A stretch of 64,000 bases of DNA. Source: Pseudomonadota bacterium (GTDB lineage Bacteria > Pseudomonadota > Alphaproteobacteria > UBA1280 > JAAZVW01). The notes beneath the pieces are model-generated. The model was given only the letters and a program-made list of their open reading frames with translations. It was not told the origin of the DNA and ran no database searches. Made by a program: the position numbers and the translations under genes. Shown piece after piece: positions 12,569-24,140 of this stretch; the stretch's first letter is position 1; every line of letters starts with the position of its first letter. The DNA lies in assembly GCA_018623135.1 (NCBI GenBank), contig JAAZVW010000003.1:977-64976 (forward strand), read 5' to 3'.

Positions 12569-13936
12569 CTATTTTCCGTCGTAATAATTCCAAGGTGGGT
12601 ACTTAGCGGCACCGCGTTGGCGTGCATTGTACTCTTCTTGCTCAGAGTAGCCACGTGGTACACCTAAACGTTGACCAGGGTGGATTAAATCAGGGTCTTC
12701 AATCTGATCTCGGTTTGCATCCCATAATAACGGCCACAACTTCCAGTCGTTATAGATACGTGGCTTGTCAGAGATACCAGAAAGGCTATCACCAGGCACA
12801 ACAATATAACGATCATCGCCAGAATAAGGGTCCTGTATGTATGCTGTACCACCGCCTTGCGCAATGCCATTAGGGACATAGTTTGGCTGTACTGGCATTA
12901 CATTGTTGTTACTGTTTTGGTCGAGTACAACACGGCCTTGTTCAGGGCTAATACCAGCACCATACTGTTCTGGTTGTGGGTCAATTTGTTGGTTGTTGTA
13001 GTCGAATAAACCATTACCACGTTCTTGAATATTTGTTGGAACATAAGGACGAGGCTCAGCACGACGGTATTCTGGGTTTTGAGCCAGCGTATCGTGGTAT
13101 TTTTCCTGAATTTTATCCTGCCCTAATTTATGAACATTTGGTAGGTAAACGGTAGAACCTTCTTCCGGAATTGGTTTGCGCCAGCTATCTGGTACGCCAC
13201 GCTGGCCAATTTCTTGTCCTTTAGCTGCACGTGGGTCTTTAAACTTACGATTATCGTAATCTGAAATTCTAGTGCCATCTGGGTGAATTGGACGACCATG
13301 GTAAAGAGGGTCGTTACGGTAGTTATAGGCAGCATTAGGGTCATAGTTATAGTCACCCGGCTTAGGTGCTGTACCTAATGGGTCAAATTCTGGGCCTTTA
13401 TCTTTTGCATGTAGTTCAATTGTGCCTTTATGCTTTTTAGACTCTGACCATTCTTCAGGGATCATACCTGAATTGATTTCTTCGTCTGTAAGTGTACGGA
13501 ATCTTTTAGGCTCTTGAATTTTAAGTGCAAGATCATCATCATCATGTGCAAGACTAGGGTCTTTCACAAACTGTACATTATTTCTAATTTGAGTGATGTG
13601 GCGTTTTTCACGTAGTAAATTTGCGTATTCACGACGCTGTATCGCATCGTATAAGCCATCAGGACGCATAGAATAAGAAGCCGTTGCACCATCATTAAAA
13701 ATAGGGCGAGCTTCTAAGTCATCACGCGTGTAGTAATTTGAGCGTTGCTCAGAAATATCTTCTTCATAATAAACAACCGGCGGAAGACGATACTCTTCTC
13801 CGTTTTCTTGGCGCATATTATTTGGCATATCTCTTTCAAAATCATTCGATTTAAAGAAATCAAACCAAGCCGCATGAGCAGGCATGCTCACGGCTACAAA
13901 AAGCGCAATGAAAGATATTTGTAATTTTTGCTTCAT
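12569..13936 (-). CDS. Secreted low-complexity protein with a C-terminal LysM domain
   Basis: C-terminal YIVVPGDSLSGISDKPRIYNDWKLWPLLWDANRDQIEDPDLIHPGQRLGVP is a LysM fold signature. The likely start is MKQKLQISFIALFVAVSMPAHA (signal peptide) at 13936; the ORF is open to 13972. Confidence 0.7.
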   Translation of the reverse strand: MKQKLQISFIALFVAVSMPAHAAWFDFFKSNDFERDMPNNMRQENGEEYRLPPVVYYEEDISEQRSNYYTRDDLEARPIFNDGATASYSMRPDGLYDAIQRREYANLLREKRHITQIRNNVQFVKDPSLAHDDDDLALKIQEPKRFRTLTDEEINSGMIPEEWSESKKHKGTIELHAKDKGPEFDPLGTAPKPGDYNYDPNAAYNYRNDPLYHGRPIHPDGTRISDYDNRKFKDPRAAKGQEIGQRGVPDSWRKPIPEEGSTVYLPNVHKLGQDKIQEKYHDTLAQNPEYRRAEPRPYVPTNIQERGNGLFDYNNQQIDPQPEQYGAGISPEQGRVVLDQNSNNNVMPVQPNYVPNGIAQGGGTAYIQDPYSGDDRYIVVPGDSLSGISDKPRIYNDWKLWPLLWDANRDQIEDPDLIHPGQRLGVPRGYSEQEEYNARQRGAAKYPPWNYYDGK

Positions 13937-13966
13937 GGGCTTATTATGTGCTTTGAATAAGAACAA

Positions 13967-15475
13967 ATGCAAAGGTTAAAACAACGGATGACTTTTTTGA
14001 TCAATAGGGGTGTGGCAATTTTACTTTTTTTGGCTGTAAGTTTGCTACCTATAAAAGCAATGGCCATCTATATGGGTATGCAAACCTTACCTTCTGGGCT
14101 AGATAGTCGTTTAGAGGCATCGGCTTCCGCAGCACGTATTTTAAGGCTGGTTTCAGAAGGCTTAGTTTATTTAGATGATGATTTTACACCTAAAAGCCGC
14201 ATTGCTGAAATTGATTTAAATGAGCCAGAAAAGAAACTGCTGTTTCATCTTAAAAACCATCAATTTCACGATGGTTCGCAACTAACAGCTCCGCAGCTTG
14301 AACTTTTTTATAATGCGATTTTGCAAGATAAAATCCCCAGCCCATTAAAAGGTAGCTTTGCAGATATTCTTTCTATTAAAGCAGAAAACGATAAAACATT
14401 AACTGTGTATTATACCGAGTTAACCACAGGCTTGTGGGAAGCTCTACAATTACCTATTTTAAAACTTGATGAAGCCCTTGGCAGAGGCCAAATGCCAATA
14501 GGTTTAGGAGACTATAAAGTAGTTGCATTTGAGCCTAACCGCTACTTACGTTTAAAAGCCTATAAAAAAGGTATTGTGGATCAGTTAGAATTTAGCCTCA
14601 TTAAAGACCCTATGGTGCGTTTACTTAAGCTCCAAAAAGGTGAAATTGATATCATTCAAAACGATATGCCGGTTGAGCTTTATAATTATGGTATTCAGCA
14701 GGGGCTTAAAGGCTTAACCGCACCAAGCTTAAGCTACACGTATTTAGGGTTTAATCTGGAAGATAAACTAACAGGTAAAAAAGAATTACGTCACGCTCTT
14801 GCCTATGCTCTTAATGCGCAAAGTATTATAGATACGCTTTTACAGGGTTATGCAGAGCCTGCTGAATCTTTATTAAGTGAAAAACATCCATTTCATCATC
14901 CTGTGCCACAATTTGCTTATAACCCTAAAAAGGCAGAAGATTTATTAGATGAACTCGGCTACCCACGCCAAAAAAATGGCTACAGATTTAGCTTAGATTT
15001 TTCTACAACAAATAATCCCTTTATTTTGCGTGTTGCTCAAATTATGCAGCAACAGCTTAAAGAAGTTGGCATTAAAATGAATATTCATAACTCTGAATGG
15101 GGTACATTTTACGGTCAAATTAAAAAGGGGAATTTCCAGATGTATCTTCTGACTTGGGTTGGTCGCTTTCAGCAAGATATTTATAAAGTGCTTTTCCATT
15201 CGGATATGATTGTACCTCAGGGTGCAAACAGAGGGCGTTATCAATCTAATAAAGCAGATCAGCTTATTGATAACCTTGTGACTTACCCAACCCCGCAAAT
15301 TGCTCAACAGCTGCAAGAACTCATTCATAAAGAAGATATGGTGTATGTCCCGCTTTGGAAACGTCATCACCTTGTGCTGATGAACCCAAATTTAAAAGGC
15401 TATAGCGTAAACGAAGAGGGCGATTATTCGGGCCTTAAAGAGATAACACAGAAACACAAGGACAATGAAAAATGA
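13967..15475 (+). CDS. ABC-transporter substrate-binding protein, family 5 (peptide/nickel type)
   Basis: 502 aa with a signal peptide. LVYLDDDFTPKSRIAE, YLGFNLEDK and WVGRFQQD are typical of SBP_bac_5. No permease or ATPase genes are adjacent. Confidence 0.8.
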   Translation: MQRLKQRMTFLINRGVAILLFLAVSLLPIKAMAIYMGMQTLPSGLDSRLEASASAARILRLVSEGLVYLDDDFTPKSRIAEIDLNEPEKKLLFHLKNHQFHDGSQLTAPQLELFYNAILQDKIPSPLKGSFADILSIKAENDKTLTVYYTELTTGLWEALQLPILKLDEALGRGQMPIGLGDYKVVAFEPNRYLRLKAYKKGIVDQLEFSLIKDPMVRLLKLQKGEIDIIQNDMPVELYNYGIQQGLKGLTAPSLSYTYLGFNLEDKLTGKKELRHALAYALNAQSIIDTLLQGYAEPAESLLSEKHPFHHPVPQFAYNPKKAEDLLDELGYPRQKNGYRFSLDFSTTNNPFILRVAQIMQQQLKEVGIKMNIHNSEWGTFYGQIKKGNFQMYLLTWVGRFQQDIYKVLFHSDMIVPQGANRGRYQSNKADQLIDNLVTYPTPQIAQQLQELIHKEDMVYVPLWKRHHLVLMNPNLKGYSVNEEGDYSGLKEITQKHKDNEK

Positions 15476-17300: not shown

Positions 17301-19463
17301 TTATTTGTCGGTTGCGTAAAATACACCGTCCCAGTCTTTTTCTGGCGGATTGTCTTCAAATTCTTTAATGCGTTGGCGGTATATGTCAACAAGCTTTCTA
17401 TGCTCAAGTACTTTGTCTAAGCATCGCTTAGCGGTTGTCCAGTCTTGGGCTCTAAAGGCATCAATAGCAGCAGATATGTTTAAAAGTTCTTCTACCTTAT
17501 TTTCAGGTATGCCATCGCCTAGCCAAATAAGCTCATAAACGTCTACAGGCTTTTGTTTCCCTTTTACAGCCACAAGGTCTAGTGGTACAAAATGGCCTTC
17601 TGGTACTTGGTTTTTAACGCTACCACTTACTACAATATCAACACCATAAAACTTACTTAAACCCTCTAAGCGAGAGGCAAGGTTAACGCCATCACCAATT
17701 ACAGTGTAGTTAAAACGCTGTTTAGAGCCCATATTACCAACAGAAACAATATCGGTATGAATACCAATACCAATTTTCATTTCAGGTAAATTATGTGCGA
17801 CAAAATATTTATTTAAATCGCTTAATTCTTGTAACATCTTAACAGCAGCTTTACAGGCTTGTTTGGCGTGTTCTTGCACGTCCATAGGAGCATTCCAAAA
17901 AGCCATAATGGCGTCACCAATGTATTTATCAATTGTACCTTTTGTGTGCTGTACAATTTCTGTCATTGGTGTGAGATAATGATTTAAGTAATCTGTAAGC
18001 TGTTTTGGGCTTAAATGTTCAGAAATTGTCGTAAAGGATCTAATATCTGTAAACATAAGCGTAAGTTCTTTGTTCTCGCCACCTAATGAAAGTTTTTCAG
18101 GTGCTTTTGAAAGTGTTTGTATCACTTCTGGCGCTAAATAATGCTGAAAGGCATGACGCACAGAACGTCTTTCTCGTTCTTCACGCGCAAAGCGTATGGT
18201 GTTTTGTACAATAAAGCTTAAGGTGATGGTTACAATAGGGTACATAATATCAAACAAATACCCGTAAGAGATATAAAGAATAATAGAAGTCCCAATTGTA
18301 AGGGCAATAAGCCATAGTGCACCTAAAAAGGCAAAAGTGGCTTTAAAGCGAGAGATGTATTTAATTAAGAACAAACCCGCAATAAGAATATAAAAAATTT
18401 CTACTGTATTGGCAAAAGAAGGCCTGTTTAAGTTTGTGCCAGTAAAAATTGTTTCTAGCATTTGCGCATGCACGTCTACCCCAGGTGTTACTGGGTTTAC
18501 AGGTGTCGCACGCATATCTAATAAACCAAGGGCAGAAGTACCCACAAGCAAAATAGCATCATCAAGCATGCCCTTTGGTAGCCTATTATGATACAAGTCA
18601 GTTGCAGAGATATAATTTAACCTATGGTAAGAACGATAGCGCACCCAAAATTGACCATGTTCATCTGTTGGTAAAACATATTTGCCCACTTTTACAGAAG
18701 AAACACCTGTTTGTTTATCTGTTTTAATAAAAAGCGGTGTTTTATCGCCCTGAAATAATCTAAGAGTTTCAACTACTAAAGAAGGGTAGAGCTGGTTTTG
18801 GTAGCTGCTAAAGGTATTAATTTTTCGGATGATATTATCGGAAGAGGGCACATAACCAAAACTACCAAATGATGAAAAAGAATCCTGAATTGTCGGTATA
18901 TTGGTAACGACGTGCTCGTAATTTGGTAACCATTCAGTGGCTAAAGCACCAATTTGGTTTACCGAAGATTTGTTTTTGAGCAAAGGAGATTTCCCTTGAG
19001 CATCCTGCGTAAATACAATACCTCCCACAACAGGGTATTCTTTTAAAAGCTCAGCAAAATGTTTATCGTGGTTTTTAAGGTTTTTTAAGCTTTCTTGCGT
19101 ATTGTAATCAAGGTTCCAGTATTCCATTGCTTGATCTGGGGATGTACGATCCACCTCTGCAAATACCATATCAAAGGCCATTACTTTTGTGCCTTGCTTA
19201 AAGGCTTTTTCAACAAGTTCAGCAACAAAGGTGCGTGGCCAAGGCCATTGGCCCATTTCGCTTAGACTTTTTTCATCAATATCAAGAATGAATACTTTTT
19301 CTGTAGGCGCTTTTTCACGTGGCCAAGCTTGCTGGTAGAGATCGAAAGATTTTAAACGAAGTGTCTGAATAAAATTAGGGTCAGCAATCCTAAGCAAAAT
19401 GAGTAAAAAGAGAATGGCAAATGGCACTAATTTAAGCACTATATTTTTATATGTAGCCGACAC
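17301..19463 (-). CDS. CHASE2-domain class III adenylate cyclase
   Basis: 720 aa with an N-terminal TM plus a periplasmic CHASE2-like region, three or more TM segments, and then a cyclase domain: FTDIRSFTTISE, DKYIGDAIMAFWNAP (Lys consistent with adenine specificity), YTVIGDGVNLASRLEG. Confidence 0.85.
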   Translation of the reverse strand: MSATYKNIVLKLVPFAILFLLILLRIADPNFIQTLRLKSFDLYQQAWPREKAPTEKVFILDIDEKSLSEMGQWPWPRTFVAELVEKAFKQGTKVMAFDMVFAEVDRTSPDQAMEYWNLDYNTQESLKNLKNHDKHFAELLKEYPVVGGIVFTQDAQGKSPLLKNKSSVNQIGALATEWLPNYEHVVTNIPTIQDSFSSFGSFGYVPSSDNIIRKINTFSSYQNQLYPSLVVETLRLFQGDKTPLFIKTDKQTGVSSVKVGKYVLPTDEHGQFWVRYRSYHRLNYISATDLYHNRLPKGMLDDAILLVGTSALGLLDMRATPVNPVTPGVDVHAQMLETIFTGTNLNRPSFANTVEIFYILIAGLFLIKYISRFKATFAFLGALWLIALTIGTSIILYISYGYLFDIMYPIVTITLSFIVQNTIRFAREERERRSVRHAFQHYLAPEVIQTLSKAPEKLSLGGENKELTLMFTDIRSFTTISEHLSPKQLTDYLNHYLTPMTEIVQHTKGTIDKYIGDAIMAFWNAPMDVQEHAKQACKAAVKMLQELSDLNKYFVAHNLPEMKIGIGIHTDIVSVGNMGSKQRFNYTVIGDGVNLASRLEGLSKFYGVDIVVSGSVKNQVPEGHFVPLDLVAVKGKQKPVDVYELIWLGDGIPENKVEELLNISAAIDAFRAQDWTTAKRCLDKVLEHRKLVDIYRQRIKEFEDNPPEKDWDGVFYATDK

Positions 19464-19503: not shown

Positions 19504-22272
19504 TTAGTTTTGTTTACCTATAAAAATACCACTTGCTGTATCAGCGCCTGCTGTAAAACCAAAGTTACCACCAGTTTCAACAGCATTTGGTCCAAAGAAC
19601 GCACCTTCTACGCTACCAGAACCACCACTTACATCAAACGTACCAGTAAAGACATTCTGACCCGAATCCCAGCCCATGTTACTATTGGCAAAGCTGTAAC
19701 CAGCAAAGCTAGAACTATCCATGCTTACATTGCGGGCATTAAAGTCTACAGCCATATTCAACACACCATTTTGTTGGATTACGCCATTATTTAAACTACC
19801 AATTAATGCGCCAGAGTATGTCGCTTGTACATTATTTGTTGCTAGCTGGTTTAAGTCTGTCGTTGTTGTAAGCTCACCTGCTACAAAGGCAGCATTGGCT
19901 TCTACAGAGCCGGCTTCTGCACCAGCATTTTCAAAAGTACCATTCCATAAGCCCCAGTGTACAAATTGGCAATCATTACAGCCGCCCGTTTGTCTTACAA
20001 GCTGGGCATTTTGAGCTGTTGTACTAAATGAACCTTTATCCGAATCCATATCACCAGTTAATGCGGTAGATGAACTAAAAGAAGTGATTTCTTTTTGTAC
20101 ACCAAAAGTACCGTCAGCTAGGCGAGGGGCAAAGTATAATTTACCACCTGCTGCTGTGTTACGGTTAATATATACGCCCTCAGCTGTGAGCTCAATTGCC
20201 AGCACATCTCCTGCTAAAATTTCAAAAGTTTTACTTAATTTATTTTTAGCTGCGTTAAATTGATAGAGTTCAATTTTGTTTGTATCTGTATTTGCAATTG
20301 CAAGCTGGTCACCTGCTAAAGATAGGTTTGCATTGCTACCCAAATCAAATTGCTGAATTGTGTTAAATGTTTGCGCATTTACAAGCTGTGTTTTACCGTT
20401 TGAATCTCGCAATACAATAAAGTTTTCATTCGCATCCATTTTTGCGAGTACAGAATTAAAGCCTGTTATTAAATTGACTGATCTATAGTTTGCTGTATCT
20501 GTAAGGTCAATTTCAAAAAGTTGCTTGCTGCTGTTTGTTGCCGCATATAGTTTATTGCCGACAACCTTAAATACATCACCAAATTTTTCATTCACTTGCA
20601 TGCCTGTTGGTTGCGTAATACTGCGTACAAATGTACCGCTATCATCAAATTCTAAAATAATACCAGCAAAACCAGATCCCCCATTCGCTGTATTATTATC
20701 AAATAGAGATAGACCTACAAAGGCATGGCCATTTTCTGCGATATCAACATAATTGTATTGGCCTGTATTGCCGTAAGAGCTAAAGCCTATATTTGGTAAG
20801 CTTAAGTCTGATTGTAATTGTGTGAGCACGCCTGTAAAGTTTAAGTTTGCTTTTGTGGCCCAAGCACCACCTGTGCGTTCATAAATAGTTATATAAGGCG
20901 CACTTGTATCAGAAGGTGTAGGTTTTGAAGAAACGGCAAAATTACCATTCATCGCTACAAGAGAATTATTTGCTGTTAAACCAATAGTCTCTGGCGTTTC
21001 TGCAAAGTTACGACTGTCGTAAAAGTTTAAATCACCATCTGCATTTCTTGCGATAAGTAATTCGTTCGATTGACGGAATGTATTAGATTGTTGATTAAGT
21101 GTATATTGCTCATCAAAAGTCATGCCTTCAGCCGTTGTTTTGAAAGCAGAATGGAACGAAGTACCATCTTCTGCGTAGGTGTTTACTTGTCCAAAAGCTT
21201 TGCCCTGGCTATTTGTTGCTAAATTCACCTTACCTTGAACCGCATCTGTAAATGCAGAGTTACCGCCTTGTTGCATAAACCCACCAACAAAGCCTCGTTT
21301 GCGGATATTAACATTCGTAGGTGCATTAAGTTGGTTATCGGTTACGCGTTGTTCTATTGTTTCTTGTGCGGCTGTTGTTAAGTCTACACGACGCTCTGCA
21401 GGTTGTCTTTGTTCAACAGCGTCGGCATCAGCAGGCGCTTGTGGTTTTGGTGCCTGCGCAACATCTTTAAATTTAGCAGCTACGGCAGCTTTTTTCTTTG
21501 GCTTTGCATCCGCTTTTTGCTCTTTATCAGTGTCGCCTTCTTCTGTTGGTGCTTTTTCTTGTGTTGCACCACCTTCTTCAGCAGGCGCTGTACCTTCTTG
21601 CTGTTCGGTTTCCTGTTCTTCGTTTTCAGCCGCTTCTTCACTGTCTGTAGAAAGCGCATCCTTTAACACAACAAGCTGTGCATTAGAAAAGGGCTTAGGC
21701 TCACTCGGCGCTGCACTCGGAGATGTGATCTCTGTAAAGAAGTTAGGTCTATCTAACGGCACAGAACCATTGTTATTCGACACATCTAAACAACAAACAG
21801 TTAAGCCTACAGTTGTCTGACCTGTGGGTTTTACTTCACCAATACCACCAGAACCACGTACACCAATTGTTGCAAACGGCGTATTTACTTTTACTTGGTC
21901 AGGGCGTTTTTTGGCAATTTTACCTGTAATGAATCTAAAAAAACCTTTGGTTACATTAATAACAGATTCACCTTCAGCACTCTTACTATCGTACACAAAT
22001 TTATCTAAAACAATTTCAGTATTGTGTCCAAGAGTAAAAATACTCTGGTCATTAAAAATAAGTTGAGCAGTACTCTCGCCCTCAGAAACTAGGGTTTGGT
22101 TTTCATAAACTTTATCTTTAACATCAAGCTTTGCTTTGTTGCTACCGTTTATCACAAAAACATCGCCCTTAATAGCGGCGACAATACCGATAGAATCTGC
22201 AGCTTGTGCAAGTTGGGATGTGACCGCCATTGCAAAAATAAAAATAGCTTTTTTAAATGTAGATGTCGTCAT
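19504..22272 (-). CDS. Secreted FecR-domain protein with an acidic/Lys-rich linker, a large central region and a C-terminal TbpB-like 8-strand beta-barrel domain
   Basis: 922 aa. SPI-type signal peptide (AMAVTSQLAQA-AD, no lipobox Cys). FecR-like region IKGDVFVINGS...TKGFFRFITGK...TPFATIGVRGSGG. Low-complexity residues about 208-295. C-terminus ATYSGALIGS...MAVDFNARNVS...GTFDVSGGSGSVEGAFFGPNAVETGGNFGF...SGIFIGKQN matches the TbpB/hemophilin-type barrel pattern. Confidence 0.7.
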   Translation of the reverse strand: MTTSTFKKAIFIFAMAVTSQLAQAADSIGIVAAIKGDVFVINGSNKAKLDVKDKVYENQTLVSEGESTAQLIFNDQSIFTLGHNTEIVLDKFVYDSKSAEGESVINVTKGFFRFITGKIAKKRPDQVKVNTPFATIGVRGSGGIGEVKPTGQTTVGLTVCCLDVSNNNGSVPLDRPNFFTEITSPSAAPSEPKPFSNAQLVVLKDALSTDSEEAAENEEQETEQQEGTAPAEEGGATQEKAPTEEGDTDKEQKADAKPKKKAAVAAKFKDVAQAPKPQAPADADAVEQRQPAERRVDLTTAAQETIEQRVTDNQLNAPTNVNIRKRGFVGGFMQQGGNSAFTDAVQGKVNLATNSQGKAFGQVNTYAEDGTSFHSAFKTTAEGMTFDEQYTLNQQSNTFRQSNELLIARNADGDLNFYDSRNFAETPETIGLTANNSLVAMNGNFAVSSKPTPSDTSAPYITIYERTGGAWATKANLNFTGVLTQLQSDLSLPNIGFSSYGNTGQYNYVDIAENGHAFVGLSLFDNNTANGGSGFAGIILEFDDSGTFVRSITQPTGMQVNEKFGDVFKVVGNKLYAATNSSKQLFEIDLTDTANYRSVNLITGFNSVLAKMDANENFIVLRDSNGKTQLVNAQTFNTIQQFDLGSNANLSLAGDQLAIANTDTNKIELYQFNAAKNKLSKTFEILAGDVLAIELTAEGVYINRNTAAGGKLYFAPRLADGTFGVQKEITSFSSSTALTGDMDSDKGSFSTTAQNAQLVRQTGGCNDCQFVHWGLWNGTFENAGAEAGSVEANAAFVAGELTTTTDLNQLATNNVQATYSGALIGSLNNGVIQQNGVLNMAVDFNARNVSMDSSSFAGYSFANSNMGWDSGQNVFTGTFDVSGGSGSVEGAFFGPNAVETGGNFGFTAGADTASGIFIGKQN

Positions 22273-22287
22273 TATTTTACCCTTACC

Positions 22288-23553
22288 CTAGAAACGCCAA
22301 CCTAAATTTGCACTAATACGTTCATTATCGTACGTATAGTTTGTAATGTTAGAGTTCACGTCTCTCCATATATAACTCATTGACGCGCTCAGCTTGCCAA
22401 AGGTTTTACCTACCGTTATTTGTGAGCCTCGTTCCGTTTCTTCACGTATCGTAGAAGGGTCAACAAAGCTGTCTACATTCTTATAGTCAGTGGCTTTAAT
22501 ATAAAAATTGACAGAGGCAAATAAACTTGGCGTAAACATACGTGTATAGCTAAAAGCGGCCATGTTTTGGTTGTAGCTATAATAAGCGCGACGTGCTTTT
22601 TCTTTCTGATGCTTATAGCTTAAGCTTAGTAAATCTTTAGGAGTAAAGGCGTATTTTACATCAAATAAAGCATAAAAAGCGTCACCATTACGCTCAGAAA
22701 GTGTGCGACTGTCAGCAGAATTAAAATAATGTTTGTTTTCCCAGCCTAATGTGGTGCTCAATGCTGTCTTTTTATTAAGCTGCTTGGCAACTTCTATGCT
22801 CAAAGTTGCGGCTTCTTGATAAGGTTTTTTACCTAAATCAATAAAGTTATACCCCACTTTAGGAGAAATACGCACACCACTTTTCGGGAAGTTAAGCACA
22901 GGCCCAGTAGACAAACTATGGAAGGTTAAATCAAGCTCTTCTAAACTGGCTTGTTTGGTCTTGTAAAAATTGTATTGGCTCTTCCATTGGTTCCCATCTT
23001 GGTCATGGAACATATATCTATGAGAAATACTTAAGCCAAAAGAGCGTGCATCGTCTTGCTGCCCCTTAGAGGCATCATCAAGCGGAATATCAATACCTTG
23101 AAAGGTCACTTCACCTGCAGCAGAAGCAGAATTTGCATTAGAATCCGTATGTAATCCTAAAGAAAGCGCACCAGAAACAAAATGTTTTTTCTGCTGTTCC
23201 TGTATTTTTTCTAGCAAAGCGTTAATATTGGCGATAACTTGCTGTGGCGGGTCCGCTTCTAGTACCTCAGTAAATAATTCTTTCGCTAACTCAAAATTAC
23301 CTAAAGAAACATGCAAAGCTGCTAAGTCCAGTTTAATACGTGGTAAATCTGGGTTTACAATAAGCATACGTTCATATGTTGCCATAGCGGCATCATAATC
23401 TTCTAGTTCTATGGCTTTGTTTGCATATTCAAAATTGAGGTCTAAATTAGTAGGGTCGTCCATTAAGCGTGCAAAAATAGCATCTAAGTCACTAGCGCTT
23501 GCATTTAAGCAAAGCAGGCAAATGAGTGTACTTAGTATAAACTGCTTTTTCAC
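22288..23553 (-). CDS. Slam-like outer-membrane protein (N-terminal TPR plus DUF560-like beta-barrel; type XI secretion candidate)
   Basis: 421 aa with a signal peptide (LCLNASASD). TPR-like helices cover about residues 30-120 (FEYANKAIELEDYDAAMATYERML...). The C-terminal roughly 290 aa has an alternating beta pattern and ends NSNITNYTYDNERISANLGWRF with a terminal Phe. Confidence 0.6.
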   Translation of the reverse strand: MKKQFILSTLICLLCLNASASDLDAIFARLMDDPTNLDLNFEYANKAIELEDYDAAMATYERMLIVNPDLPRIKLDLAALHVSLGNFELAKELFTEVLEADPPQQVIANINALLEKIQEQQKKHFVSGALSLGLHTDSNANSASAAGEVTFQGIDIPLDDASKGQQDDARSFGLSISHRYMFHDQDGNQWKSQYNFYKTKQASLEELDLTFHSLSTGPVLNFPKSGVRISPKVGYNFIDLGKKPYQEAATLSIEVAKQLNKKTALSTTLGWENKHYFNSADSRTLSERNGDAFYALFDVKYAFTPKDLLSLSYKHQKEKARRAYYSYNQNMAAFSYTRMFTPSLFASVNFYIKATDYKNVDSFVDPSTIREETERGSQITVGKTFGKLSASMSYIWRDVNSNITNYTYDNERISANLGWRF

Positions 23554-23579: not shown

Positions 23580-24140
23580 TTAAGCTGATAGTTTTTCTTT
23601 AAGAGCACAACGCTCAATAATCAAGCCTATAACAGGCATTAAATCTTTCGCATCATCCAAATGTTCTAGTTTAAAAGCGGTAATGTCGTTCTTTTCAATA
23701 TCAAAATGGTTAATCAGCTGAACCACGCCAATAACTGTGCCTTCAATATTTTTTAAAGGAAAGCTCAGCATAGATTTAGAGTGGTAATTATTTTCACGAT
23801 CAAAAGAAGGGTTAAAGCTATAAGGTACCGAAGCATCTAAAGCATAGAGGTTATCAATTTCAAGAAACTCACCCGTTGTTGCAACATAACCAGCAATAGA
23901 ACTTTCGTTTTGCGGGATACTAAAACGCTGTGGATCCACATTTATTTTATCGTTCTGGATAGAATAACAAACCAAATTATCTTCAGGTGTAGGGTCTACT
24001 AAATTTTCCACCATAAAAATACTGCCAGCTTCAGCAATGGTATGGCGACGTAGTTTTGCAAGAATAAGTTCCACAAGCTTATGCGTGTCTAACTGACCTT
24101 TAATAGAGATGGTATGCACAAATTCTTCGATAAGACTCAT
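23580..24140 (-). CDS. Stand-alone GAF-domain protein
   Basis: 186 aa. AEAGSIFMVEN...SIAGYVATTGEFLEIDNLY...SKSMLSFPLKNIEGTVIGVVQLINH is a canonical GAF pattern. No other domain is present. Confidence 0.75.
   Translation of the reverse strand: MSLIEEFVHTISIKGQLDTHKLVELILAKLRRHTIAEAGSIFMVENLVDPTPEDNLVCYSIQNDKINVDPQRFSIPQNESSIAGYVATTGEFLEIDNLYALDASVPYSFNPSFDRENNYHSKSMLSFPLKNIEGTVIGVVQLINHFDIEKNDITAFKLEHLDDAKDLMPVIGLIIERCALKEKLSA

What the first reader, a model, noticed from the sequence alone, without database searches (positions are those of the whole stretch)
19504..22272. Chimeric 922-aa cargo: SPI signal peptide, FecR domain, acidic linker, a roughly 470-aa unknown central region and a TbpB-like barrel, with no lipobox
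Most classical Slam substrates are lipoproteins. This protein has a signal peptide ending AQA-AD and no Cys near the cleavage site, so it would be a non-lipidated, hemophilin-style substrate. The FecR-like module (residues about 30-140) normally acts in the periplasm next to anti-sigma or sensor proteins, and placing it on a putative surface-exported protein is an unusual topology. The central region (residues about 300-765) matches no motif I recognise. It is rich in N, G, T, S and aromatic residues, which suggests a beta-rich, possibly propeller-like fold. A CNDC Cys pair immediately precedes the terminal barrel (coding about 19507-19980).
Basis: partly seen in the sequence, partly recalled or inferred. 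Interest (0 to 1): 0.6.

Follow-up and report, generated by a model that had tools for sequence, protein, structure and literature searches.

The report
FecR-headed Slam cargo wired to cyclase
This 922-residue exported protein joins a FecR signalling domain to the barrel tag recognised by Slam (type 11) secretion pores, and lies between such a pore gene and the genome's only cAMP-making sensor, so it is probably the sensing arm of a relay from the cell surface to cAMP rather than an ordinary secreted cargo.

Summary
ORF 19504-22272 (-) encodes 922 aa:
- a type-I signal peptide (AQA|AD, no lipobox; first Cys at 160);
- a FecR domain (Pfam E 1.2e-8, above cut-off);
- a 104-aa acidic disordered linker;
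- a 455-aa region with homologues in only two other protein clusters;
- a CNDC pair, then an 8-stranded C-terminal barrel. Its family profile matches TbpB at E 1.6e-20, and also NHBA, LbpB, fHbp and hemophilin.

It is not a one-off chimera. The layout FecR, variable middle, TbpB-like barrel recurs widely, mostly in Alphaproteobacteria. A Slam-like gene lies close upstream in 59 of 80 related loci, and a CHASE2 cyclase is adjacent in 17.

This genome holds one Slam, one FecR, one TbpB-like barrel, one CHASE2 and one class III cyclase, all in this operon.

Between syntenic orthologues the FecR domain keeps pace with the cyclase, the barrel with Slam, and the middle diverges fastest. The middle models, at low confidence, as a beta-propeller.

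Best reading: a split analogue of the Sinorhizobium NsrA-CyaK relay. The topology across the outer membrane is inferred, not shown.

The cyclase/FecR/TPR cluster has been noted in Campylobacterota. I found no paper linking it to type 11 secretion. This scan has noted the same module in at least 32 other genomes.

The parts
22201..22272 (-). Signal peptide, residues 1-24 (MTTSTFKKAIFIFAMAVTSQLAQA|AD). Type I, no lipobox.
   Evidence: Read from the sequence. The first Cys is at residue 160. Only 3 of 41 family members have a lipobox-like motif.
21658..22200 (-). FecR domain, residues 25-205 (Pfam core 61-153), with a vicinal Cys pair at C160-C161.
   Evidence: PF04773 E 1.2e-8, above cut-off. 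AF2 pLDDT about 80. 77% and 55% identical in the two syntenic orthologues, close to the cyclase at 73% and 45%.
21346..21657 (-). Disordered acidic A/E/Q/K-rich linker, residues 206-309; proposed tether.
   Evidence: Net charge -12. pLDDT about 25. Most family members have a 30-150 aa low-hydrophobicity linker at this position, with unrelated compositions.
19981..21345 (-). Lineage-specific central region, residues 310-764.
   Evidence: Only P0002 and P0003 cover it among 1.84 billion representatives and in a small family database. 32% identity to P0003 where the flanking cyclase is 73%; no homology in the syntenic P0004.
20086..20964 (-). Beta-propeller-like core of the central region, residues about 437-729 (low-confidence model).
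   Evidence: AF2 gives repeated four-strand units; pLDDT mostly 41-80 (10-residue block means), highest over 619-729. Foldseek finds 862 hits at E<=1e-3, and all of the top 50 shown are propellers (WDR4, BamB, Tako8, lactonase), TM 0.3-0.4. No significant internal sequence repeat.
19969..19980 (-). CNDC Cys pair, residues 765-768, directly before the barrel's [YF]-x-x-W-G-x-W start.
   Evidence: A C-x(1-4)-C motif lies before WGxW in 36 of 41 family members.
19507..19980 (-). C-terminal eight-stranded TbpB-like barrel, residues 765-922, ending GIFIGKQN; the putative Slam (T11SS) recognition domain.
   Evidence: The family profile matches TbpB E 1.6e-20, NHBA 7e-17, fHbp 8e-9 and hemophilin 2e-7. 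Eight strands in AF2. Foldseek finds TbpB, fHbp and NHBA. It is the only such barrel in the genome.
22288..23553 (-). Slam / T11SS outer-membrane protein, 421 aa: signal peptide, TPR, 14-strand-type SlipAM barrel. Its stop lies 15 bp before the cargo start.
   Evidence: PF04575 E 6.9e-11 above cut-off, plus TPR families. Only copy in the genome.
17301..19463 (-). CHASE2 class III adenylate/guanylate cyclase, 720 aa, starting 40 bp after the cargo stop.
   Evidence: PF05226 E 1.9e-48 and PF00211 E 1.5e-22. It is the only CHASE2 and the only class III cyclase in the genome.
23580..24140 (-). Stand-alone GAF protein, 186 aa, first gene of the cluster.
   Evidence: PF01590 E 1.9e-9. The same position is conserved in the syntenic locus L006. 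A GAF gene lies beside the cyclase in L020 and L031.

Best explanation
The protein is the dedicated partner of the adjacent Slam-family (type 11 secretion) outer-membrane protein. At the same time it is the periplasmic input of the adjacent CHASE2 cyclase. Together the three form an outer-membrane-to-cAMP relay, a split analogue of Sinorhizobium NsrA-CyaK.

Proposed course:
1. Sec export and cleavage at AQA|AD (read from the sequence).
2. The C-terminal TbpB-type barrel is recognised by Slam, as in known cargo (inferred from homology and gene adjacency).
3. Translocation runs from the C-terminus. The barrel and the fast-evolving propeller-like region come to lie at or outside the outer membrane as the ligand-binding part (inferred).
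4. The FecR domain stays in the periplasm on the 104-aa flexible linker and contacts the CHASE2 domain of the cyclase (inferred from conserved gene pairing and from the architecture of NsrA).
5. Ligand binding outside changes cyclase output. The cAMP or cGMP is read by the GAF protein and by two small cNMP-binding proteins encoded elsewhere (inferred).
For: - The barrel belongs to the TbpB/NHBA/fHbp/hemophilin superfamily (supported). The Slam gene lies 15 bp upstream.
- The genome has one Slam, one FecR, one such barrel, one CHASE2 and one class III cyclase, all in this operon.
- Slam -> FecR/barrel -> CHASE2 cyclase recurs in distant relatives: L003/L004 at 30% identity, L006, and Paracoccus pAMI5.
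- A Slam-like gene lies close upstream of the FecR protein in 59 of 80 loci, and a cyclase is adjacent in 17.
- In Elusimicrobia, Omnitrophota, Planctomycetia, Acidobacteria and Dongia the same slot holds FecR proteins without the barrel. So the FecR domain, not the barrel, is the constant of the module.
- The 1190-aa ORF overlapping cyaK on pSymB is FecR + TPR + outer-membrane barrel. NsrA is needed for CyaK/CyaD1/D2 to sense an external protein signal (PMC7529298, PMC13001267).
- Identity between syntenic orthologues: FecR 77/55% against cyclase 73/45%; barrel 50/27% against Slam 35%; central region 32% and then none.
- A linker of 30-150 aa with unrelated compositions follows FecR in most family members.
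- Slam moves unfolded cargo and recognises a C-terminal motif first (PMC9090332). A folded or bound N-terminal domain could therefore be left behind.
Against: - No localisation, interaction or expression data exist for this or any family member.
- Every known T11SS cargo is fully translocated, and Slam takes unfolded chains, so the FecR domain could be exported too.
- Only 17 of 80 related loci have the cyclase next door, so the Slam-FecR pair can exist without an adjacent cyclase. Five of five such genomes tested do carry CHASE2 cyclases elsewhere.
- The NsrA barrel is not detectably homologous to the Slam barrel; only the TPR part matches. The precedent is an analogy.
- I identified that ORF as NsrA by its position and size, not from the original paper, which is not held.
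- The central-region models are low-confidence, pLDDT 43-47.
Confidence: 0.55

Rival explanations
1. Ordinary, fully exported T11SS cargo. The whole protein, FecR domain included, is passed through Slam and released or displayed, like hemophilin/HphA. It acts outside the cell as a binding protein. The cyclase is linked only by co-regulation.
For: Signal peptide without lipobox. TbpB-type barrel. Adjacent Slam. Slam translocates unfolded chains whole in the published model. An NCBIfam hit names a FecR-domain Leptospira protein, Lsa33, as a surface adhesin. 63 of 80 related loci have no adjacent cyclase.
Against: It does not explain why the FecR domain keeps pace with the cyclase. It does not explain why barrel-less FecR proteins occupy the same slot beside Slam-like and CHASE2 genes. 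It does not explain why FecR proteins pair with CHASE2 sensors without any Slam, or why NsrA places FecR in front of TPR repeats that would be periplasmic by analogy with Slam.
Confidence: 0.2
2. Wholly periplasmic adaptor. The barrel docks on the periplasmic TPR or mouth of the Slam-like protein without being translocated. The Slam-like protein is itself the outer-membrane sensor or pore, as the NsrA barrel is thought to be. The 922-aa protein bridges it to the CHASE2 cyclase.
For: Barrel-less FecR proteins still pair with Slam-like outer-membrane proteins. In NsrA only the barrel loops are said to be surface-exposed (PMC7529298). Many of these Slam-like proteins are divergent: only 11 of 25 reach PF04575 at E<=0.01.
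Against: The barrel belongs to a family whose characterised members are all translocated. The fast-evolving, lineage-specific middle fits an exposed ligand-binding surface better than an internal adaptor.
Confidence: 0.17
3. Chance neighbourhood. The cargo and Slam form a secretion pair, and the cyclase and GAF genes are unrelated neighbours.
For: Gene adjacency alone is not function. The promoter and terminator scans are uninformative.
Against: The trio recurs at 30% identity and across phyla. The gaps between genes are 15-40 bp. All the relevant domains are single-copy in this genome and sit here.
Confidence: 0.04

Closest known systems
Type 11 secretion (Slam) soluble cargo: hemophilin/HphA/HrpC; and lipidated TbpB, LbpB, fHbp, NHBA
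   Same: Sec signal; C-terminal eight-stranded barrel of the same superfamily; encoded next to a DUF560/SlipAM outer-membrane protein; non-lipidated, like hemophilins.
   Different: The N-terminal FecR domain, long tether and propeller-like middle are not among the roughly ten cargo architectures catalogued in PMC12282271. There is no TonB-dependent receptor or haem/iron genes nearby. It is linked to a CHASE2 cyclase. Neither T11SS survey searched for the terms mentions FecR, CHASE2 or cyclase; two T11SS preprints mention FecR only as a neighbouring regulator.
Sinorhizobium meliloti NsrA with CHASE2 adenylate cyclases CyaK/CyaD1/CyaD2
   Same: A FecR-domain envelope protein is encoded directly upstream of a CHASE2 cyclase. 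An outer-membrane component is needed for the cyclase to sense an external macromolecule. TPR plus barrel are present.
   Different: In NsrA the FecR domain, TPR and a roughly 600-aa barrel form one polypeptide. Here TPR plus barrel is a separate Slam protein, and the FecR protein carries a soluble TbpB-type barrel. The two barrels are not detectably homologous.
[quoted passage not shown]
   Same: The same set of domains was noted as a probable single pathway. Several representative hits with FecR plus barrel have the short, AT-rich-type signal peptides one might expect in that group, but no organism names were available to check this.
   Different: In the passages I read, that paper does not identify the TPR protein as Slam/T11SS or the FecR protein as cargo-like. 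This locus has a GAF protein rather than a phosphodiesterase.
FecA-FecR-FecI cell-surface signalling
   Same: The logic is the same: an outer-membrane protein passes a signal to a FecR-domain protein in the periplasm and on to a cytoplasmic output.
   Different: There is no transmembrane anti-sigma part, no ECF sigma factor and no TonB-dependent transducer. The output is a nucleotide cyclase.
LysM-FecR protein with CHASE2 histidine kinase ('BiofilmReg' operon of Burkholderia, PMC5192318)
   Same: A secreted FecR-domain protein is encoded next to a CHASE2 sensor.
   Different: That system has no Slam and no TbpB-type barrel. It has a peptidoglycan-binding LysM domain instead, and its output is a two-component system.

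Membership tests
T11SS (Slam-dependent) cargo | [quoted passage not shown] | tested here: met
   The family profile matches TbpB at E 1.6e-20, NHBA at 7e-17, fHbp at 8e-9 and hemophilin at 2e-7. AF2 gives eight strands. Foldseek finds TbpB, fHbp and NHBA. The single sequence against Pfam scores only 19.9 bits, below the cut-off of 26.
T11SS (Slam-dependent) cargo | Sec signal peptide (lipoprotein or soluble type) | tested here: met
   A type-I signal with A-x-A is read from the sequence, and there is no Cys before residue 160. No SignalP run was possible.
T11SS (Slam-dependent) cargo | Encoded beside a DUF560/SlipAM outer-membrane protein | tested here: met
   A PF04575 protein, above cut-off, lies 15 bp upstream. 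The same holds in 59 of 80 related loci.
T11SS (Slam-dependent) cargo | Slam-dependent appearance on the cell surface or in the medium | not testable with these tools
   Needs co-expression and protease-shaving or secretion assays.
FecR-type anti-sigma factor | Periplasmic FecR domain (PF04773) | tested here: met
   E 1.2e-8, 35.8 bits against a cut-off of 24.
FecR-type anti-sigma factor | N-terminal cytoplasmic anti-sigma domain and one transmembrane helix; partner ECF sigma factor and TonB-dependent transducer | tested here: not met
   The domain follows a cleavable signal peptide directly. No sigma factor or TonB-dependent receptor is among the neighbours.
NsrA-type outer-membrane receptor | FecR domain, TPR repeats and a large outer-membrane barrel in one polypeptide | tested here: not met
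   Here the parts are split over two genes. The NsrA barrel shows no similarity to the Slam barrel or to this protein beyond the FecR and TPR parts.
NsrA-type outer-membrane receptor | Encoded next to, and required by, a CHASE2 adenylate cyclase | tested here: inconclusive
   Adjacency is met. The functional requirement cannot be tested here.
Beta-propeller (central region) | Repeated four-stranded blades arranged around an axis | tested here: inconclusive
   The AF2 model is low-confidence (pLDDT 43), yet Foldseek returns only propellers among the top hits, at TM 0.3-0.4. There is no significant Pfam hit and no internal sequence repeat.

The most novel reading that the evidence does not exclude
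A type 11 secretion pore is used here not to release a protein but to hold one permanently threaded through the outer membrane. A fast-evolving propeller plus barrel sits outside as the receptor. A disordered tether runs through or past the Slam channel. A FecR head in the periplasm switches the CHASE2 cyclase. This would be a new mode of cell-surface signalling, and it would give a first handle on what CHASE2 domains respond to.
Probability: 0.3. Interest if true: 0.85.

Novelty: new variant of a known kind. Interest (0 to 1): 0.62.

Why it matters
What CHASE2 sensor domains detect is not known (so stated in the 2016 paper PMC5192318). The only studied case, NsrA-CyaK in rhizobia, needs an outer-membrane partner whose mechanism is unresolved.

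Type 11 secretion is so far described only as a one-way exporter of nutrient-scavenging and adhesin proteins. If this family is Slam cargo that stays connected to a periplasmic FecR head, then T11SS also builds trans-envelope sensors, and the cyclase input becomes testable with defined parts.

This genome is a convenient minimal case. It is about 1.5 Mb and has a single Slam, a single cargo, a single CHASE2 and a single class III cyclase.

The hypervariable middle suggests that each lineage senses a different external ligand.

Tried and rejected
- Homologues of the central region alone. Only P0002 and P0003 cover it in 1.84 billion representatives. jackhmmer over all family ORFs found nothing more, even at E<=1.
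- Internal repeats in the central region. hhalign of the region against itself gave nothing significant; the best alternative alignment had E 0.43.
- Pfam on central sub-fragments at E<=10. Only a WDR36 propeller fragment at E 0.017-0.027, far below its cut-off.
- Is the NsrA barrel a Slam barrel? BLAST and profile comparison matched only the TPR part. Rejected: the relation is analogy, not fusion of the same parts.
- Is the propeller an insertion into a TbpB-like handle-barrel lobe? A family lobe profile matches residues 649-921 strongly. It aligns the upstream G-F-x-G-G-F motif (residue 327) only at i-E 33. This is a hint, not a result.
- Two AF2 runs, full length with 10 sequences and residues 310-922 with 2 sequences. 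Both left the middle at low confidence.
- The original NsrA paper (PMC5952392) is not held. I identified the NsrA ORF from its position upstream of cyaK and its size.
- Promoter and terminator scan: the counts were no different from shuffled sequence.
- The word-indexed search with Slam gave only six relatives and no names.
Full report
**1. The observation**

The minus-strand ORF 19504..22272 encodes 922 aa.

- *Signal peptide.* The N-terminus reads MTTSTFKK-AIFIFAMAVT-SQLAQA|ADS. That is a basic n-region, a ten-residue hydrophobic core and A-x-A at -3/-1. The protein has only four cysteines, at 160, 161, 765 and 768. A lipobox is therefore excluded by direct reading. No SignalP or LipoP tool was available.
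- *FecR domain.* Pfam places FecR (PF04773) at 61-153 with E 1.2e-8, above its cut-off. AlphaFold2 models residues 25-205 as a confident all-beta domain with pLDDT about 80.
- *Linker.* Residues 206-309 are A/E/Q/K-rich with net charge -12 and are modelled as disordered.
- *Central region.* Residues 310-764 match no Pfam or NCBIfam model.
- *Barrel.* CNDC at 765-768 directly precedes QFVHWGLW and the C-terminal domain. As a single sequence the C-terminus reaches only 19.9 bits against TbpB_B_D, whose cut-off is 26. A profile of 20 members of its own domain family matches solved TbpB C-lobes at E 1.6e-20, NHBA at 7e-17, LbpB at 1e-10, fHbp at 8e-9 and hemophilin at 2e-7. The AF2 model has eight strands between 772 and 921. 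Foldseek returns TbpB, fHbp and NHBA.

**2. Surroundings**

The gene sits in a tight minus-strand cluster:

- a stand-alone GAF protein (23580-24140);
- a 421-aa Slam protein with TPR repeats and a SlipAM/DUF560 barrel (22288-23553; PF04575 above cut-off);
- this gene, 15 bp downstream of Slam;
- 40 bp further on, a 720-aa CHASE2 class III nucleotide cyclase (17301-19463).

GC content is uniform across the region, 0.37-0.43. The assembly is 1.52 Mb and 85% complete. It holds exactly one SlipAM, one FecR domain, one TbpB-like barrel, one CHASE2 domain and one class III cyclase domain, all in this cluster. Two small cNMP-binding proteins lie in tandem on another contig.

**3. The protein is one of a family**

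A word-indexed search found 11 relatives. Two of them (P0003, P0009) carry both FecR and TbpB_B_D in the precomputed Pfam annotation.

An exhaustive HMMER scan with residues 301-922 gave 130 representative clusters. Only P0002 (98% identical) and P0003 (39% over this region) cover the central region. All the others match the last 160 or so residues, nearly always at their own C-terminus. Of the 140 proteins then in hand, 59 also have an N-terminal FecR domain.

A scan of one genome per species found 248 relatives. Those matching both ends of the query are mostly Alphaproteobacteria: Stellaceae, Ferrovibrio, Rhodospirillaceae, Hyphomicrobiales and Methyloceanibacter.

I called ORFs in the 80 fetched loci and searched them with jackhmmer profiles seeded from this operon:

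- a Slam-like gene lies close upstream of the FecR protein, usually directly adjacent, in 59 of 80 loci;
- FecR and barrel lie in one ORF in 39 loci;
- a CHASE2 cyclase is adjacent in 17 loci.

The full order Slam -> FecR/barrel -> cyclase is seen in metagenomic relatives at 30% identity (L003, L004), in the syntenic locus L006 and on Paracoccus aminophilus plasmid pAMI5. L002 shows cargo followed by cyclase, but the contig ends before the Slam position.

A C-x(1-4)-C motif before [YF]-x-x-W-G-x-W is present in 36 of 41 family members. A lipobox-like motif is present in only 3 of 41.

**4. The constant of the module is FecR, not the barrel**

In Elusimicrobia, Omnitrophota, Planctomycetia, Acidobacteria and Dongia, a Slam-like protein with a barrel homologous to this one precedes a shorter FecR protein (277-548 aa). 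That protein lacks the TbpB-like barrel, and outside Dongia a CHASE2 cyclase lies next to it.

CHASE2 cyclases elsewhere in alphaproteobacterial genomes have their own short FecR-only neighbours. A LysM-FecR protein accompanies a CHASE2 histidine kinase in Burkholderia (PMC5192318).

In S. meliloti pSymB, the 1190-aa ORF whose stop overlaps the cyaK start is FecR (66-160) + TPR repeats (378-587) + a C-terminal outer-membrane barrel. By position and size it is NsrA, whose published barrel portion is 'amino acids 600-1200'. This identification is my inference, because the original paper is not held. NsrA is required for CyaK and CyaD1/D2 to respond to an external protein signal (PMC7529298, PMC13001267).

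The type 11 secretion papers I could search do not mention FecR as a cargo domain, nor CHASE2, nor cyclases. FecR appears there only as a neighbouring anti-sigma regulator.

**5. Domain-wise divergence**

Percent identity to the two syntenic orthologous loci:

| Part | vs P0003 locus (L002) | vs P0004 locus (L006) |
|---|---|---|
| FecR domain | 77 | 55 |
| Linker | 36 | no alignment |
| Central region | 32 | no homology (E 0.065) |
| Barrel | 50 | 27 |
| Cyclase | 73 | 45 |
| Slam | not on the contig | 35 |
| GAF | n/a | 46 |
| CitMHS transporter | n/a | 57 |
| PanD | 74 | n/a |

The FecR domain changes at the pace of the cyclase, the barrel at the pace of Slam, and the middle is by far the fastest and is replaced outright between lineages. 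This fits FecR contacting the cyclase, the barrel contacting Slam, and the middle facing something variable. It rests on three loci and is suggestive only.

A low-hydrophobicity linker of 30-150 aa follows the FecR domain in most family members. Its composition varies widely: A/E/K here, P/T/G collagen-like in Paracoccus, and Q/G/P, poly-P or G-rich elsewhere. That pattern is what a spacer selected for length and flexibility would show.

**6. The central region**

It has no homologues beyond P0002 and P0003, even within the family, and no significant internal repeat.

AF2 with 10 sequences and with 2 sequences gave low confidence, with mean pLDDT 47 and 43. The second model shows regular four-strand units over about 437-729. 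There pLDDT runs mostly 41-80 (10-residue block means) and is highest over 619-729. Foldseek returned 862 matches at E<=1e-3. All of the top 50 listed are beta-propellers (WDR4, designed Tako8, BamB, tetrathionate hydrolase, lactonase) at TM 0.3-0.4. A propeller of seven or eight blades is the best guess but is not established.

A family 'handle plus barrel' profile matches 649-921 strongly (E 6e-54). It aligns the G-F-x-G-G-F motif at 327 only insignificantly (i-E 33). This hints, no more, that the propeller-like part is inserted into a TbpB-like lobe.

**7. Mechanism**

*Shown or directly read:* a Sec-type signal without a lipobox; a FecR domain; a TbpB-superfamily barrel; Slam and CHASE2 cyclase as immediate neighbours; single-copy status of all parts; recurrence of the trio across phyla.

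*Inferred:* Slam recognises the barrel. In the published model, translocation starts from a C-terminal specificity motif on an unfolded chain (PMC9090332). The barrel and middle fold outside. The FecR domain remains in the periplasm on the tether and acts on the CHASE2 domain. Binding of an external ligand changes cAMP or cGMP synthesis.

I put 0.55 on this relay reading as a whole and about 0.3 on the specific threaded topology.

Rivals:
- full export as ordinary cargo, 0.2;
- a wholly periplasmic adaptor docking on a Slam-like sensor, 0.17;
- unrelated neighbours, 0.04.

**8. Comparison and novelty**

As a family member, the protein meets the three testable criteria for T11SS cargo; the fourth, Slam-dependent export, cannot be tested here. 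It carries a FecR domain but is not a FecR anti-sigma factor: it has no transmembrane or anti-sigma part, no sigma factor and no TonB-dependent transducer. It works like NsrA but is not built like it, and the barrels are not detectably related.

The gene cluster has been seen at the domain level in Campylobacterota. The identification of its two envelope parts as a T11SS pore and a T11SS-type cargo was not found in the literature I could search. I therefore class it as a new variant of a known kind.

Earlier notes of this scan describe the same module in at least 32 other genomes, with similar readings. I reached the NsrA comparison independently and recorded it, my first look-up of earlier notes. 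Those notes are not counted as evidence.

**9. Limits**

- The organism is an unnamed metagenome-assembled genome in an order with only six species genomes.
- The loci in section 3 were chosen by similarity to this protein, so the neighbourhood frequencies describe this family, not FecR proteins in general.

Noticed in passing
G000 contig 13, about 13555-14429 (L111, L112): Two small cNMP-binding proteins (open frames of 183 and 199 aa) lie in tandem. They are the only PF00027 hits in the genome and are candidate readers of the single cyclase's product.
   Followed up: no
window 17301-19463: The CHASE2 cyclase is the only class III nucleotide cyclase found in the 85%-complete genome. All cNMP signalling of this organism may therefore depend on this operon.
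   Followed up: partly
L019, L020, L021, L023, L027, L031, L038: In Elusimicrobia, Omnitrophota, Planctomycetia and one uncultured, unclassified bacterium, FecR proteins next to Slam-like genes lack the TbpB barrel (a CHASE2 cyclase was found beside all but L023). They share another C-terminal pattern, roughly F-x-x-G-x-G-x-A-[IV]-F ... N-x-x-G-x-I. This may be a second kind of Slam-recognised domain.
   Followed up: no
L017:5904-7871 (Paracoccus aminophilus pAMI5): The FecR/TbpB-barrel protein has a 140-aa P/T/G-rich linker that hits the Pfam collagen triple-helix repeat at E 3.7e-4, in the position of the acidic linker here.
   Followed up: no
L010, L054, L085, L094: Two FecR+barrel genes lie in tandem in these loci, behind a single Slam-like gene in L054, L085 and L094 (in L010 the upstream outer-membrane gene showed only TPR hits). 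This suggests paralogous sensors sharing one pore.
   Followed up: no
window residues 160-161 and 765-768 (21790-21795; 19969-19980): The mature protein has only four Cys, as two close pairs: CC inside the FecR domain (also in P0003, P0004 and P0075) and CNDC before the barrel (a family-wide CxnC). Their role, whether disulfide, metal or redox, is unexplained.
   Followed up: partly
P0011, P0012: FecR domains also occur on large proteins with RTX (HemolysinCabind) repeats. The FecR domain may therefore be attached to substrates of more than one export route.
   Followed up: no
window 21299-21820 (+) and 21403-21666 (+): Long antisense ORFs (173 and 87 aa) overlap the low-complexity linker. They are almost certainly artefacts of its composition.
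   Followed up: no
L002:358-3825 (P0003): The closest distinct orthologue is 233 aa longer. It carries an extra module between the linker and the shared central region, so the middle evolves by module gain and loss as well as by substitution.
   Followed up: no
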